Positions 38,435 through 60,233 of a stretch of DNA of 64,000 bases are shown piece by piece. Both the position numbers and the translations under genes were made by a program. Position 1 is the first letter of the stretch; every line of letters begins with the position of its first letter. The stretch covers positions 39,122,001-39,186,000 of the forward strand of contig OX597826.1 in the NCBI GenBank assembly GCA_951406725.2, written 5' to 3'. This DNA comes from Octopus vulgaris. Lineage: Eukaryota. The notes beneath the pieces were generated by a model. That model made no database searches and was not told the DNA's origin. It was given only the letters and a program-made list of their open reading frames with translations.

Positions 38435-38472
<38 letters not shown>

Positions 38473-38493
38473 AACAAGGATATCTAGAGGTAA

Positions 38494-38580
38494 TGCAGTA
38501 CGATCGTTTCATGTGACTCCATTTAATTGAACAATGTAAACATTACATCAATTTAAAATGTAGAGCAATCTTCAGCTGCA
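38494..38580 (-). ncRNA. Type I hammerhead ribozyme with an extended stem II
   Basis: Minus strand: tgcag-CTGAAGA-[58-nt hairpin]-GAAAC-gatc-GTA-ctgca. Stem I tgcag/ctgca pairs fully; stem III is palindromic (ACGATCGT). Confidence 0.8.
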
Positions 38581-51614: not shown

Positions 51615-51821
51615 ATTATTACTATCACTTTTCTTTAATAATAAATTAAATTAATGGCTTACTACCACAAATGACCAACCTCTTCCAGTTCTTCTTCCTC
51701 CGTTTTCTTCTTGCATATAATTTCAACTACAGTTAACCTGCTGAATTACCTTCCACTGCATACCTTTTACCAAGGACTGTACCTACGCAGGTAATCGCTA
51801 GGAGTACCTTTGGATTTAACC

Positions 51822-53694
51822 ATCCACTGATGCTATATTTCTGGTAAGACAGCTACAGGAGAAATATCTAGCCAAAGATAAATCTATGTACCTGGCTTTC
51901 ATTGACATGGAGAAAGCCTTTGACAGGGTCCACCAATCCCTTATCTGGTGGTCAATGAGGAAACTAGGGATAGATGAATGGTTAGTAAGAGCTGTGCAAG
52001 CCATGTACAGGGACGCTATAAGGTGAGGGTTGGCAACGAGCACAGTGAAGAATACCAGGAGTCCACCAAAGTGCAGTCCTCAGCCCCCTCCGATTTATCA
52101 TAGTCCTCCAGGAAATAACAGAGGAATTCAAGACAGGATGTCCCTGGGAGCTCCTCTATGCTGATGACCTTACATTAATTGCTGAGTCACTATCAGAACT
52201 AGAGGAGAAGTTTTAGGTGTGGAAACAAGGATTAGAATTGAAGGGCCTTAGAGTCAACCTAGCTAAAACCAAAGTCCTAATAAGTAATAAGGCAGGCAAA
52301 CCACAAATCCCTTCAGGTCCTGCTCGATCTGAAGAAAAGGCGTTGGTAGAAACTCTTTAAGATGTCCCCAGTGTAAGCTATGGACACATAAGAGATGCAG
52401 CAATATCAAAGGAAGGCTAACTGGGAAGATAGTTTTGTATGTGACAGATGCTCAGGAGCAATAAATACTGAAAATGTGCAGAGAACAACATCCGCCACAT
52501 TCCAGGGAGAAAAACTAGAAGTAGTTGATAGCTTCCATTACCTAAGTGACCAAGTCAGTAGCGGGGGAGGGTGCATTAAAAGTGTAGCTGCTAGAATAAA
52601 AAAAGCCTGGGCAAAGTTCAGGGAGTTCTTACCTCTGATGGTGACAAAGGGCATCTTGCTCAGAATAAAAGGTAGACTGTATGAAGCATGTGTACAAACA
52701 GCCATGCTACATGGCAGTGAAACATGGGCCGTGACTGCTGAGGACATGCGTAAGCTCACAAGGGATGAAGCCAGTATGCTCCGATGGATGTGTAATGTCA
52801 GTGTGCATACTCGACAGAATGTAAGTACCTTGAGAGAAAACTCGGACCTAAGAAGCATCAGATGTGGTGTGCATGAGAGATGACTGAGCTGGTATGGTCA
52901 TGTGGCGAGAATGAATGAGGATAGCTGTGTGAAAAAGTGCCACACCCTAGCGATTGAGGGAACCTGTGGAAGAGGTAGACCCAGGATGACCTGGGATGAG
53001 GTGGCGAAGCATGACCTTCGAACATTAGGCCTCACCAAGACAATGACTAGAGACCAGGACCTTTGGAGATATGCTGCACTTGAGGTGACCCAGCAAGCCA
53101 AGTGAGACCATAACCTCGTGGCCTATGCCAGGGGTGTAACCAGCCCACTTATGCGTATCTATCCTTCATTGGACACTAAACTTTGCTTGCGAAGACCTGT
53201 TGAGACAAGTGAAATTGAAATCAAAATCAAATTCAATGACTGGCAACCGTGCTAGTGGAGCGCTAAGAGCACTATCCAAGCGTGATCGTTGCCAGAACAG
53301 CAAACTGGCTTCCATGCTGGTGGTATGTAAAAAGCACCATTCGAGCATGATCGTTACCAGCATCGCCTTACTGGCACTTGTGCCGGTGGCATGTGCAAAA
53401 CATTCAAGCAAGGTCACTGCCAGTACTGCCGGACTGGCTCCTGTGCAGGTGGCACATAAAAAACACCATTTGAGCGCGGCCGTTGCGAGGACCACCTGAC
53501 TGGCCCTCGTGCCGGTGGTACATAAAAGCACCCATTACATTCTTGGAGTGGTTGACATTAGGAAAGACAGCCAGCTGTAGAAACTCTGCCAGATCAGACT
53601 GGAGCCTGGTGCAGCCATCTGGTTTGCCAGCCCCAGTCAAATCATCCAACCCATGCTAGCATGGAAAGCCGATATTAAACGATGATGATGATGA
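51822..53694 (+). mobile_element. 5'-truncated RTE LINE
   Basis: DAIFLVRQLQEKY, LAFIDMEKAFD, ELLYADDL, PHD insert, 3' UTR repeats and (GAT)n tail. Confidence 0.93.
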
Positions 53695-54074
53695 CATATA
53701 TATACATATATACTCATACATATATATATATATATACATATATATACATAAATATACATGTATATATACACATATATATATAAAATGTTATACATATACA
53801 CATATATATTTAAAATTGAATAAGGGTAGAAATTGATATTAATAAATTAAAACCACTGGCCTAGCATATTTTTTAAAAAATCCGAAGATTAAAAATTTTT
53901 TTACATACAAAATTTAGAGGACTAACCACTATAAGTGAACAGCCTGTATGCTAGAAATAGACGTCAAAATCGCCATTTTCCACAAAGAATGTGTTCTCAA
54001 GAAAAAATTCAGCAAAAAAACCAGTGAAAAAATAAGCAAGACAAATGAAAATATACAAAATAAAAGACAATTAC

Positions 54075-54149
54075 CTATGTATTAATTAGTTTCACTTGTT
54101 AATATTTATGTATATGGATACGTAAACATCTGCAAAATCATCAGCATAG
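54075..54149 (-). ncRNA. Type I hammerhead ribozyme inside a ~527-bp direct-repeat unit
   Basis: Minus strand: ctatg-CTGATGA-[44-nt hairpin]-GAAAC-taatta-ATA-catag. Direct repeats at 53808-53918 and 54335-54437. Confidence 0.72.
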
Positions 54150-55035
54150 TCTGTCGTTTACAAAACAAAGTTTCCAGAACTAGATACAGAACGCTCGACC
54201 AAAATCCAGCATGTATAAAGTTCTACAAATCATATTTATGTGTATCTTTCAAATGCCTTCACTTTGGCGCGCTGAGATCGGAAATTACTCTGCAGTTAAA
54301 CTACAGCAGTCAATTCACCGGCTAGAGAACATTTATTTAAGATTAAATAAGGGTAGAAATTGATATTAATCAATTAAAATCAGAGGCCTAGCATATTTTA
54401 AGAAAATCCGAAGATTTTTTTACATACAAAATTTAGATCGGACTGGAGCCTGGTGCAGCCTCCTGGCTTCCCAGAACCCGGTCGAACCATCCAACCCATG
54501 CTAGCATGGAAAACGGACGTTAAACGATGATGATGATAATTTCAATACCGGTTTCAGTCATTGGGACTTTTTCATCTGTATGGAAAACAATTAAATTTTG
54601 GTAAAGAAAAGCTTTTTAAAAAAATATTTGCATAGTATTCAAATACAATAGGCATTTTCCTTTTTACTGCTTGTCGTTTACTCTTGTGGTTTTGAGGTTG
54701 TTGTGAATTCTTGGCAGAGAAAAAATAGAAGGAAGAGGAGGAAGCAGATAAGAAGAAGAAGAATGCAGGAGTGCCATGATAGAAGTGGGATGTTAAATGG
54801 TCAAGTGCCCTGAAAGTGACTTGTGGGTGGCAGTATCAATTGAATTCTTGAGACATCTCTTTAGAATGTATTGTTTATAATATTTGCGTAGGTGTTATTC
54901 TAAAGAGCAATAGTAGTAACATAAGGAAGGAGGTGGCGGAAGAAGACGAAGAGGGGGAAAGAGAAGAGAGAATAATAAAGGATGCAGGTGGTATGATAAT
55001 AGTAGGATGTTAAATGGTCAAGTGACCTAAAAGTG

Positions 55036-55701: not shown

Positions 55702-56019
55702 AATATATATATATAAAAATAAATATAAGAGAATGGTCACTATGTGGCTCATTCTAGCACTAGAAAATCCAAAAGGTTTCAACCACAAAAATACATGTTT
55801 CCCATGGGAAACATGTATTTTTGTGGTTGAAACCTTTTGGATTTTCTAGTGCTAGAATGAGCCACATAGTGACCATTCTCTTATATTTATTTTTGTATAA
55901 AATATTATAATATATTATAAAATATTATAATAATCCAGGTTTCTCGAGGCACTGGGCCACTTGGTGTTGAACAGATATACTATTAAATTAGTATCTAATT
56001 CTCTCACCCTTATTAATTA

Positions 56020-56193: not shown

Positions 56194-56268
<75 letters not shown>

Positions 56269-56271
56269 TAT

Positions 56272-56304
<33 letters not shown>

Positions 56305-56316
56305 AATATATATATA
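55036..56316. repeat. Compound (TA)n / ACATAAATAT satellite tracts flanking a palindrome
   Basis: 55036-55714 and 56020-56316 are almost entirely A/T. Confidence 0.95.
55715..55894. repeat. Perfect spacerless 180-bp palindrome
   Basis: 90-bp arms centred on ccca/tggg (55804/55805). Confidence 0.95.
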
Positions 56317-56346
56317 ACTTCTCTTTCTTCTTTCCTTTCTTTTCAG

Positions 56347-59300
56347 GTACATGAAGCCACTGTCCCCTGTCCCAGGGTCTCACAGGCCCATACCTCCCAC
56401 ACCCTCAGGGTTGGCAGTCTCAATGTTGGCACACTGAAAGCTAGGTCTAGTGAGATTGTTGAGATGCTTGAATGGAGATGTGTCGATATGTGCTGCATCC
56501 AAGAAGTAAGGTGGAGAGGAGGTTCTGCTAGGTTCCTCACAGGCAAAGAACGTGGGTACAAGATTTTCTGGGCGGGGAACACTGACGGGGTCGGGGGCAT
56601 TGGTATACTTCTCGCTGAAAAATGGGTAGATAAGGTAATTGGGGTAGTCAGAGTATGTGACAGAATACTTAAGATTAGATTAGTGCTTCACCATGGGTTA
56701 GCAACCATTAAATCGGCCTATGCCCATCAGCTGGGGCTACCCGATGGACAGAAAGACCGATTCTATGACACACTACTGCAGACTACCTCATTGACGAATG
56801 ACAGGGACCTTTTTTTGTGGCTGGTGACTTCAATGGACATGTTGGACAACATACAGGGGGCCTCCATGGCGTACATGGAAGCTATGGCTATGGTTCCTGC
56901 AACGAGGAGGGAACCAGGCTGCTGGAGTTCTGCGATGCAAATGATCTTATGGTTTGCAACACTAACTTCAGGAAACCTACCAGTCACCTAGTCTCCTACC
57001 GATCGGGCCGACATAATAGCCAAATTGACTACATCCTTGCCAGAAAAAGGGAAAGATGGTTGCTTATAAATGCCAAAACCTTCCCAAAGAATGTATCCCA
57101 CAACATAGACTGGTAGTTAGTGACTTTAGGATCAGGATTAAGTGGACACCCAGAAGACGACCAACATGGAAAAGAAGGATCTGGAAGCTTAAAGGTCTTG
57201 CGAATGGACAGAGATTTAGAGAATATTACTCAAAGCATTTGACGAAATAGAAGAGGATATAGCTTCACATAGTGTAGAAGACAACTGGAGGTTTCTATGG
57301 GACAACCTGTTGAAAGCCACTAACCAGATCTGTGGATGGTGCAAAGTCCCCTCTCGACCCAAAATAACATGGTGGTGGAACAATTTTGTAGACAGGGCTA
57401 TTAGAGAAAAGAGACAGGCTTGGAAGGACTGGAAGAACGGTGGTAGCAGGGAATTGCATCAGACTGCCAAAAGAGAAGCTAGGAGACAGGTTTACTTAGC
57501 CAGAGGGGAAGCAGATAAGAAAAAATTTGCCAATGTTCTGTGCCATGAGGATCAAAGACTTGAGGTATTTTGTGCTGCAAGACAGTTTGTGAGAAAGAAT
57601 CGAGATGTTGTAGGAGAGAAATGTGTCTGCATGGATGATAGTTCTCTTGCGCTAAATGGGGCTGCAAAGAGAGAGGTTCGGAGACGCCATTATGAAAGGT
57701 TGCTGAATAAAGAAAATGAATGGGAGAAAGAGAGTCTGCTGAATGTTGACCCAACAGAGGGACCTGCTATCTGAGTTGACAGTACCTTGATAGATAAAGC
57801 AATTAAGAATATAAAGACAAGGAAAGCCCCTGGCCCATCAGGAATCATTGCAGAGATGCTCAAAATATCTGGCAGTGTTGGCTATAGCCTAGTCACCCGT
57901 ATAGTTAACCAGGTGATACACGAAGGAGTCATACCCAATGACTGGTGTAGCAGCATAATAGTCAACTGCTACAAAGGTAAAGGTGACGCTTTAGATACAA
58001 ATAATTACAGAGGTATCAAGCTGTTGGATCAGGTAATGAAAGTCATGGAGAGGGTCATAGCCCAACTAATTAGGGAGAGAGTCAGTTTGGATGAGATGCA
58101 GTTTGGTTTTGTGCCAGGGAAAAGCACCACTGATGCTATATTTCTGGTAAGACAGCTGCAGGAGAAATACCTAGCCAAAGATAAGCCCCTGTACCTCGCT
58201 TTCGTTGACACAGAGAAAGCCTTTGACAGGGTCCCCCGATCCCTTATCTGGTGGTCAATGAGGAAACTAGGGATAGATGAATGGTTAGTGAGAGCTGTGC
58301 AAGCCATGTACAAGGACACTGTAAAGTGAGGTTTGGCAACTAGTACACTGAAGAATTCAGGGTAGAGATAGGGGTCCGCCAAGGTTCAGTCCTCAGCCCC
58401 CTCCTATTTATCATAGTCCTCCAAGCAATAACAGAGGAATTCCAGACAGGATGCCCCTGGGAGCTCCTCTATGCTGATGACCTTGCTCTAATTGCTGAGT
58501 CAGTATCAGAACTAGAGGAGAAGTTTCAAGTGTGGAAACAAGGATTAGAATCAAAGGGCCTTAGAGTCAACATAGCTAAAACCAAAGTCCTAATAAGTAG
58601 TAAGGCAGGCAAACCACAAATCCTTTCAGGTAGATGGCCCTGTTCGATCTGTAGTAGAGGTGTAGGTAGAAACTCTATAAGATGTACCCAGTGTAAGCTA
58701 TAGACACATAAGAGGTGCAGTAATATCAAAGGAAGGCTAACTGGGAAGATAGCTTTTGTATGTGTCAGATGCTCGAGTGCAATAAACACAATGTGCAGAG
58801 AACAACTTCCGCTACATTCCAGGGAGAAAAACTAGAAGTAGTTGATAGCTTCCATTACCTAAGTGACCAAGTCAGTAGCGGGGGAGGGTGCTCTGAAAGT
58901 GTAGCTGCTAGAAAAAGAATAGCTTGGGTAAAGTTCAGAATGCTCTTACCACTACTGGTGACAAAGGGCCTCTCGCTCAGAATAAAAGGTAGACTGTATG
59001 TTGCATGTGTACGAAGAGCCATGCTACATGGCAGTGAAACATGGGCTGTGACTGCTGGGGACATGCGTAAGCTCACAAGGAATGAAGCCAGTATGATCCG
59101 ATGGATGTGTAATGTCTGTGCATTCTCGACAGTGTGTAAGTACCTTAAGAGAAAAGTTGGACTTAAGAAGCATCAGATGTGGTGTGCAAGAGAGATGACT
59201 GCGCTGGTATGGTCATGTAGTGAGAATGGATAAGGATAGCTGTGTGAAAAAGTGCCACACCCTAGCAGTTGAGGGAACCTGTGGAAGAGGAAGACCCAGG

Positions 59301-60043
59301 AAGCACGAGCTTCGAACTTTAAGCCTCACCAAGGAAATGACTAGTGACCGAGACCTTTGGAAATATGCTGTGCTTGAGAAGACCTGGCAAGCCAAATGAG
59401 ACCATAATCTCGTGGCCTGTGCCAGGGGCATAACCAGTCCACTTGTGCATACCTTTTCCTTCTTTGGACACTAAACTCTGCTTGCAAACCTGTTGAGGCA
59501 AGTGAAATCGAAATCAAAGTAAAATTCGATGACGGGCACGAGCACCATTCGAGCGTGATCGTTGACAGAGCGGCTAACAGTCTTCCGTACTAGTGGCACA
59601 TAAAGGGCACCATTCGAGTGTGATCATTGCCAGCTTTGCCTTACTGGCACTTGTGCCCTGTGCTAGTAGGGTGCTAAGAGCACCATCCGAGCATGATTGT
59701 TGCCAGAGTGGCTAATTGGCTTTCGTGCTGGTGGCATGTAGGAAGCACCATTCGAGCGGGATTGTTACCAGCATCGCCTTACTGACACCTGTGCCATTGG
59801 CATGTGTAAAAAATTCGAGCGAGGTCGTTGCCAGTACCACCTGACTGGCCCCCCGTGCCGGTGGCACGTAAAAGCACCTACTACACTCTTGGAGTGGTTG
59901 GCGTTAGGAAGGGCATCCAGCTGTAGAAACTCTGCCAGATCAAGACTGGAGCCTGGTGCAGCTATCTGGTTCGCCAGCCCACAGTCAAACCATCCAACCC
60001 ATGATAGCAAGGAAAGCGGACATTAAATGACAACGATGATGAT
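56347..60043 (+). mobile_element. Near-full-length RTE-clade LINE: AP endonuclease plus RT with PHD insertion; pseudogenised
   Basis: [77 protein letters not shown] (about 58470), FHYLS, HGSETW; several frameshifts and stops; (GAT)n tail. Confidence 0.95.
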
Positions 60044-60233
60044 AAATATAAATATATATATATAAAGTGGTAGGGTAGATATTTTCGCCAAGACGGTAGT
60101 TGAGTGCTGATTTTTTAGAGTTGCGGTAGTGAGATAAATTTTGTTTTTGAAAATTGTTGTTGGAAACTCATTTTGAATGTTGTATTAATTGTTGAATTTT
60201 TGAAAATTGTTTTGCTGCTGCCCACTGTTGGGT

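What the first reader, a model, noticed from the sequence alone, without database searches (positions are those of the whole stretch)
53808..54437. About 1.2 tandem units of a ~527-bp hammerhead-bearing monomer: retrozyme-like architecture
Seen: ~105-bp direct repeats 527 bp apart, bracketing one minus-strand hammerhead. It has a long stem II, and ATA in place of GTA breaks one stem III pair. There is no ORF, (TA)n lies at the boundary, and a second degenerate motif is at about 54541-54590. Established: retrozymes and pLTRs occur as partial tandems. Inference: genomic copy of a ~0.5-kb circularisable RNA.
Basis: partly seen in the sequence, partly recalled or inferred. Interest (0 to 1): 0.7.

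Follow-up and report, generated by a model that had tools for sequence, protein, structure and literature searches.

The report
Decayed hammerhead parasite of Penelope retrotransposons
This is one aged, mutated copy of a widely scattered, protein-free 534-base repeat that carries a predicted self-cutting RNA motif and was likely pasted into TA-repeat DNA by the enzymes of Penelope-type jumping genes; it is a known kind of element, and the circular RNA proposed for it is possible but untested.

Summary
Observation confirmed. 53808-54437 is 1.2 units of a 534-bp non-coding repeat with one minus-strand type I hammerhead. The repeat is dispersed genome-wide (225-653 exact hits of three 24-26-mers, controls 0). 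The fold shows compensatory changes in stems I and III. This copy is decayed (92% to consensus; G16.2 is A here, G in most copies). Copies carry Penelope-like (PLE) insertion marks: two fixed 3' ends about 93 nt apart (121 of 143 segments), TA targets (105 of 121), partial tandems, and inverted two-armed insertions with one end of each type (29 of 30). No copy runs into a PLE ORF and no partner PLE was identified, though young RT+GIY-YIG PLEs exist in the genome. No 5' end lies at the cleavage site (0 of 143; 90 span it), so the template was uncut or re-closed RNA. A circle is possible but not shown; no copy reaches two units. The second motif (54543-54578) belongs to a separate ORF-bearing PLE. 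Verdict: new member of a known kind (animal retrozyme / non-autonomous PLE). This scan noted similar families before on other DNA.

The parts
53696..53809 (.). (TA)n target microsatellite at the element's fixed 3' end; it follows the (GAT)n tail of an RTE LINE ending at 53692
   Evidence: 105 of 121 fixed ends in the family abut TA repeats
53808..54437 (-). Whole insertion: about 1.2 units of the 534-bp non-coding hammerhead repeat, 92% identical to the family consensus; RNA sense is the minus strand (inferred from the hammerhead and the fixed ends)
53808..53918 (-). 3' terminal repeat; its outer edge is 3' end type A (unit position about 1-7)
   Evidence: 67 of 143 segments start here
53901..53908 (-). 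Second fixed 3' end of the family (type B, unit position about 94-99); the 93 nt between A and B are the PLE-type 'tail'
   Evidence: 54 of 143 segments start here
53919..53945 (-). Short hairpin (unit position about 112-137); 5' ends of family copies pile up at its loop
   Evidence: 19 of 143 ends at unit positions 120-133 versus 24 in the 62 neighbouring nt, p about 1e-4; predicted hairpin
54064..54159 (-). Type I hammerhead: core 54144-54138 and 54093-54090, U10.1.U11.1 mismatch, long stem II, palindromic stem III, predicted cut 54080/54079; decayed here (5 differences from consensus, including G16.2 to A at 54082)
   Evidence: only strong hit of the family profile in the window
54335..54437 (-). 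5' partial second unit (pseudo-LTR); shares non-consensus variants with the 3' repeat across the family
54435..54537 (+). 5'-truncated RTE LINE 3' end with (GAT)n tail; independent insertion, different subfamily from 53591-53692, so not a target-site duplication
   Evidence: each is closer to copies elsewhere (90-91%) than to the other (86%); 'RTE' label recalled from the RT ORF fragments
54538..54720 (-). 3' end of a separate, ORF-bearing Penelope-like family with a minimal hammerhead at 54543-54578 (family core UUGAAAA, palindromic ACCGGU stem III; this copy has lost U3); about 60 terminal nt missing
   Evidence: 1090 first-look candidates; PLE protein matches on the same strand upstream in L102 and L103

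Best explanation
This is an aged, mutated copy of a dispersed, protein-free 534-bp hammerhead repeat that was likely reverse-transcribed into (TA)n DNA in trans by a Penelope-like RT/GIY-YIG enzyme, from an RNA that was likely longer than one unit or closed into a circle. Shown: family, two fixed 3' ends 93 nt apart, TA targets, partial tandems up to 1.85 units, two-armed inversions with one end of each type, no ORF, conserved hammerhead fold. Inferred steps: (1) a source locus is transcribed on the minus strand; (2) the PLE protein nicks AT-rich DNA and starts cDNA inside the RNA at site A or B; (3) cDNA runs through the hammerhead cut site and the unit junction, so the template was uncut or re-ligated; (4) synthesis stops at variable points, often at a hairpin 1.23 units from site A, close to where this copy ends; (5) in two-armed events the other DNA end primes at the other site. 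The palindromic, AU-rich stem III would favour cutting as a dimer, so single-hammerhead transcripts would stay intact and two-hammerhead ones would release a 534-nt monomer (untested). I put trans-mobilisation by a PLE at about 0.8 and a circular template at about 0.45. This copy is predicted to be inactive.
For: Copy counts 225, 501 and 653 for three exact motifs, reversed controls 0. 121 of 143 distinct segments start at site A or B; 105 of 121 on TA. Of 43 inverted pairs, 30 have both ends at A or B: 29 A+B, 1 A+A, 0 B+B, p 2e-8. Two internal RT start sites define the PLE tail in vitro (PMC11167929). Partial tandems, inverted 5' copies, one-sided tail and (TA)n bias are PLE traits (PMC8557442). 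Young autonomous PLEs with RT and GIY-YIG are present and also end on (TA)n. Redundant halves of one insertion share non-consensus bases 45 of 153 times versus 106 of 2514 with other loci. Compensatory U-A to C-G in stem III (25 vs 16 of 53 unselected copies) and stem I (37 vs 5), with N7 variable.
Against: No partner PLE was found: 0 of 30 GIY-YIG loci, 7 longer PLE loci and 3 further loci match the unit. A look-alike terminal motif shared with the neighbouring PLE was not significant (p about 0.23-0.36). The 93-nt tail is 2-3 times the reported 30-40 bp. Two-hammerhead loci are rare: 1 of 94 sampled loci, and 2 of the 20 best long matches have two intact cores. Only 34 of 76 hammerheads are intact and no copy is above 97% of consensus, so present activity is doubtful. 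Each compensatory change is probably one inherited event. 22 of 143 segments start elsewhere. In vitro, a PLE hammerhead was dispensable for insertion (PMC11167929).
Confidence: 0.8

Rival explanations
1. True rolling-circle retrozyme: two-hammerhead loci release a 534-nt RNA that is ligated, and every genomic copy, this one included, was written from that circle.
For: 90 of 143 segments span the cut site and 48 cross the unit junction; none ends at the cut site. Redundant halves share variants. Consensus folds far better than shuffles as a circle (z -7.6; plus strand -6.7). The fold was kept by compensatory changes. Short cDNA runs (median 5' end near unit position 225) would make copies over two units rare anyway.
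Against: No array of two or more units in 143 segments or the 20 best long matches. 5' ends pile up at 1.23 units, as a linear RNA start or an RT stop would give. This copy alone folds only slightly better than shuffles (z -1.9). Unprocessed RNA was the dominant substrate of a PLE in vitro (PMC11167929).
Confidence: 0.45
2. Linear template only: uncut read-through or pLTR-initiated RNA of 1.2-1.9 units is copied, with RT jumps regenerating the partial tandem; the hammerhead trims transcripts or merely hitch-hikes.
For: Modal full-length form of about 660 bp (7 of the first 30 loci end at 656-662). Upper length near 1.85 units. Hammerhead not needed for insertion in vitro (PMC11167929).
Against: A fixed 1.23-unit RNA cannot give the longer copies (for example L015 to position 990, L193 to 1045) without jumps. 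Compensatory changes show that the fold mattered in the source lineage.
Confidence: 0.4
3. Solo pseudo-LTR or 5'-truncated end of an autonomous PLE that was not sampled.
For: All insertion marks are those of PLEs. Only 150 of 6136 GIY-YIG candidates were scored and 30 fetched.
Against: The unit joins head to tail with no ORF in 48 of 143 segments. Within 600 bp beyond the 5' ends only 1 segment (L023) has a PLE protein match, 260 bp away, and no junction sequence is shared between loci.
Confidence: 0.1
4. SINE-like partner of the RTE LINE that flanks it on both sides, or a local duplication.
For: RTE 3' ends lie at 53591-53692 and 54435-54537.
Against: The two RTE pieces are different subfamilies and lie on the opposite strand. 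Family ends abut (TA)n and lack a (GAT)n tail. Hundreds of dispersed copies exclude a local duplication.
Confidence: 0.03

Closest known systems
Animal non-LTR retrozymes (Cervera and de la Pena 2020, PMC7229834; Li, Clavereau and Pollet 2026, bioRxiv 10.64898/2026.07.22.740005)
   Same: Non-coding, low-GC (31%), self-paired unit with one type I hammerhead; many solo or partial copies; co-exists with autonomous PLEs.
   Different: No dimer-to-multimer arrays found; unit 534 bp versus about 170-400 nt in the 2020 paper (within 51-972 bp in the 2026 preprint); no circle or cleavage shown; no sequence link to a pLTR found; U10.1.U11.1 and a long stem II.
EN+ Penelope-like elements and their non-autonomous derivatives (PMC8557442; PMC11167929; PMC4209133)
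   Same: Partial tandem forming pseudo-LTRs, inverted 5'-truncated arm, tail at one end only, two internal 3' ends, (TA)n bias, type I hammerhead with palindromic stem III.
   Different: No ORF; tail 93 nt rather than 30-40 bp; hammerhead is extended and lies between the terminal repeats of a modal copy rather than inside them; near-strict A+B pairing of arms, whereas the in vitro study saw no strand difference in start sites.
Plant LTR retrozymes (as summarised in PMC7229834 and the 2026 preprint)
   Same: Non-autonomous, hammerhead-bearing, with terminal direct repeats.
   Different: Type I, not type III; hammerhead not in the repeats; variable 5' ends and TA targets rather than LTRs with 4-bp duplications.

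Membership tests
Animal non-LTR retrozyme | Type I hammerhead in the unit | tested here: met
   Family fold with compensatory changes; 34 of 76 copies intact; this copy has a broken stem III pair
Animal non-LTR retrozyme | No protein coding | tested here: met
Animal non-LTR retrozyme | At least two consecutive whole units, each with a complete hammerhead | tested here: not met
   This copy has one. Longest copies are 1.8-1.85 units; 2 of the 20 best long matches hold two intact cores. Only 40 of 2992 candidates were scored
Animal non-LTR retrozyme | Low GC (<45%), highly self-paired monomer | tested here: met
   31% GC, consensus z -7.6; this copy z -1.9
Animal non-LTR retrozyme | Expressed as monomeric circular RNA | tested here: inconclusive
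   Only contigs of runs guessed to be RNA were available
Animal non-LTR retrozyme | Self-cleavage in vitro | not testable with these tools
   needs transcription assay
Non-autonomous Penelope-like element | Partial tandem (pseudo-LTR) and inverted 5'-truncated arm | tested here: met
   48 of 143 segments cross the junction; 43 inverted pairs in 94 loci
Non-autonomous Penelope-like element | Two internal 3' ends with an optional tail at one end | tested here: met
   67 and 54 of 143 ends; 29 of 30 A+B; tail 93 nt, longer than the reported 30-40 bp
Non-autonomous Penelope-like element | AT-rich or (TA)n targets | tested here: met
   105 of 121
Non-autonomous Penelope-like element | Autonomous RT+GIY-YIG PLE in the same genome | tested here: met
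   781-aa ORF with 456-bp repeats 99.3% alike
Non-autonomous Penelope-like element | Sequence similarity to the 3' end or pLTR of an autonomous family | tested here: inconclusive
   None among 40 PLE loci, a small part of 6136 candidates
Autonomous PLE (solo pLTR or truncated copy) | Repeat contiguous with an RT/GIY-YIG ORF | tested here: not met
   0 of 143 segments contiguous; one unrelated ORF fragment 260 bp away
Plant-type LTR retrozyme | Type III hammerhead inside both LTRs | tested here: not met
   Type I, single, between the repeats

The most novel reading that the evidence does not exclude
The family is a fossil record of a dimeric Penelope enzyme copying a ribozyme-made RNA circle: each subunit primes one end of a cut (TA)n site at a different fixed point 93 nt apart on the same circle, and a dimer-only hammerhead with a U10.1.U11.1 mismatch acts as the switch that cuts two-unit transcripts but spares the monomer.
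Probability: 0.25. Interest if true: 0.65.

Novelty: new member of a known kind. Interest (0 to 1): 0.38.

Why it matters
How animal retrozymes move, and what the hammerhead does in Penelope-like transposition, are open questions. This family gives countable genomic footprints that bear on both: near-strict pairing of two start sites in two-armed insertions (29 of 30), no copy stopping at the cut site, and both halves of a partial tandem coming from one template lineage. These can be tested directly in the existing in vitro PLE assay. The window's own copy is old and damaged and is not itself a good experimental object.

Tried and rejected
Rfam at E<=1 gave no hammerhead, only spurious miRNA hits. 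100-bp target-site duplication made of the RTE tails: rejected, different subfamilies. Second motif as part of the unit: rejected. Two hammerheads 3.7 kb apart as pLTRs of an autonomous element (L061): no ORF of 150 aa between them. Truncation at the cleavage site, suggested by the fall from 501 to 225 motif hits: rejected, 0 of 143 ends there. Terminal motif shared with the neighbouring PLE: not significant. The match of the core to RT 'YADD' codons is taken as coincidence, since nothing else aligns. RNA: no RNA holder listed on record; contigs of 6 runs guessed to be RNA and 1 unlabelled run hold short, varied fragments of the family, none spanning a unit; this is no evidence either way. One search used a mis-registered structure string and is void; one search is the corrected count, on an alignment in which 21 of 25 rows were picked by a motif spanning stem III, so the unselected counts weigh more. 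Look-ups by sequence in earlier findings returned nothing. A Penelope-specific Pfam family was not available, so GIY-YIG was used.

Full report
Observation. The window holds two direct repeats, 53804-53923 and 54331-54444, 84% alike and 527 bp apart. Between them on the minus strand lies a type I hammerhead: CUGAUGA at 54144-54138, GAAA at 54093-54090, predicted cut at 54080/54079. A (TA)n tract abuts the left end. There is no ORF over 79 aa. Rfam does not see the motif.

Family. A search of the window's own 2.8-Gb genome gave 3464 first-look candidates, 40 scored, with matches of 83-92% on most large contigs. Three exact motifs from different parts of the unit occur 653, 501 and 225 times, with reversed controls at 0. 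With mean identity to consensus of 91%, the family likely numbers in the thousands (inference). The unit is 534 bp, 31% GC and non-coding. The window's copy is 92% to consensus. The flanking LINE tails look like those of octopus genomes; that label is recalled and comes from no call.

The hammerhead. In 76 copies covering it, core positions are kept in 72-74, N7 varies U/C, and 34 have an intact core and proximal stems. Among the 53 copies not selected on the motif, a stem III pair is U-A in 25 and C-G in 16 (3 U-G, 1 C.A), and a stem I pair is U-A in 37 and C-G in 5 (4 U-G, 3 C.A). Each is probably one inherited event, so this is two or three events, not dozens. Pairing is 96% versus 25-47% for slid controls in a 25-row alignment, 21 rows of which were picked by a motif spanning stem III. 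Both stem III variants are perfect 10-nt palindromes that pair with themselves at -9.0 and -13.0 kcal/mol, while this copy's version gives -2.4. Stem II opens with U10.1.U11.1 in 66 of 76 copies; such a mismatch occurs in natural hammerheads (PMC3088659, passages). This copy differs from consensus at 5 positions, including G16.2 to A, so it is predicted to be inactive.

Insertion anatomy. I pooled 121 fetched loci from four searches (plus one; L061 left out as a duplicate) into 143 distinct segments in 94 loci. 67 begin at unit position 15 or less (site A), 54 at 82-107 (site B) and 22 elsewhere. 105 of the 121 fixed ends abut TA repeats. These are the 3' ends of the hammerhead strand. 5' ends vary; 48 segments run through the head-to-tail junction. 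There are 43 inverted two-armed insertions; of the 30 with both outer ends at A or B, 29 have one of each (p 2e-8). This is the PLE pattern: partial tandems, an inverted 5'-truncated copy, a tail at one end only, (TA)n bias (PMC8557442, passages). In vitro, the tail is the stretch between two internal RT start sites (PMC11167929, main text parts 1-2 of 4). Here it is 93 nt. 19 of 143 5' ends fall at positions 120-133, in a hairpin loop (12 of 100 without the length-selected loci). The window's '1.2 units' is therefore close to the family's modal long form, although an RTE fragment now overlaps its last bases.

Template. No 5' end lies at the cut site (0 of 143 at 269-275) and 90 segments span it, so copies were made from uncut or re-ligated RNA. 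In 27 loci with terminal redundancy the two halves are closer to each other than to other loci (6.9% vs 8.9%; 24 of 27) and share non-consensus bases 45 of 153 times versus 106 of 2514. That fits a circle, a template jump or a recent dimer equally. A search with the longest copy returned nothing of two whole units among 20 loci examined (40 of 2992 candidates scored); two hold two intact cores. Sequencing runs gave only contigs of guessed RNA libraries with short, varied fragments and decide nothing.

Partner. The genome has young autonomous PLEs: a 781-aa RT plus GIY-YIG ORF with 456-bp repeats 99.3% alike, ending on (TA)n (the Neptune label for it is recalled from its cysteine linker). None of 40 PLE loci matches the unit, no segment runs into an ORF, and no junction sequence is shared beyond 5' ends. 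A terminal resemblance to the neighbouring PLE was not significant. The partner is thus inferred by footprint, not identified.

Neighbours. 54435-54537 is a truncated RTE tail of another subfamily than 53591-53692, so they are not a target duplication. The second motif at 54543-54578 is the minimal hammerhead at the 3' end of a separate PLE family (1090 candidates) whose ORF lies upstream on the same strand in L102 and L103. Its family core reads UUGAAAA (a U3-A8 variant, label recalled) and this copy has lost U3.

Comparison and novelty. It works like an animal non-LTR retrozyme, which a 2026 preprint argues are non-autonomous PLE derivatives (10.64898/2026.07.22.740005, parts 1-3 of 5 read; its invertebrates were three insects and one anthozoan; supplements closed). 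It fails the strict two-unit criterion, and circles shown for coral, mussel and axolotl (PMC7229834, passages and sections 14 and 17) are untested here. Circular templates for PLEs were already proposed (PMC4209133, passages). Searches for penelope+hammerhead+octopus and hammerhead ribozyme+cephalopod listed no paper on such a family, and a 2026 octopus repeat annotation does not use the words ribozyme or retrozyme in its main text (PMC13282606, passages). Repeat libraries were not searchable. This scan's unchecked notes describe several similar families in this and related genomes; I had fixed my reading before seeing them and did not test whether any is the same family.

Verdict. A real but decayed copy of a PLE-mobilised, hammerhead-bearing non-autonomous repeat: a new member of a known kind. 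Interest 0.38, carried by the family-level footprints rather than by this copy.

Noticed in passing
L071 (G000:C1:183008429-183008902) and window 38456-38576: A second, younger hammerhead family (96-98% alike, 1867 candidates) with a long stem II and palindromic ACGAUCGU stem III, ending about 35 nt after the cut on (TA)n; an old copy lies in the window (72%). No PLE ORF is linked in 11 of 12 loci; the twelfth is L071 itself, where it follows a PLE end.
   Followed up: partly
L031:1381-1794: Chimera: a piece of that second family is joined directly, on the same strand, to the 5' end of a copy of the present family; possibly a template switch between the two RNAs.
   Followed up: partly
L069, L071, L072, L074, L079 (3' ends of the dominant autonomous PLE): Minimal hammerhead-like motif with core UUGAUAA and palindromic stem III about 100 nt from the (TA)n junction; a second 3' end about 45 nt further out in L074.
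   Followed up: no
L093:906-1985: The young PLE carries an upstream 359-aa ORF with no Pfam match, ahead of the RT ORF.
   Followed up: partly
window 55727-55880: Perfect inverted repeat with arms of about 70 bp between two long (TA)-rich tracts, likely a fold-back two-armed insertion of another element; gives spurious miRNA hits.
   Followed up: no
window 53808-53830 and 53901-53945: Both fixed 3' ends lie 14-19 nt downstream (RNA sense) of a hairpin followed by UCUA in the consensus fold; a possible RT start signal.
   Followed up: no
window 51800-53692 and 56266-60045: Two decayed RTE-type LINE copies on the plus strand (endonuclease and RT fragments).
   Followed up: no
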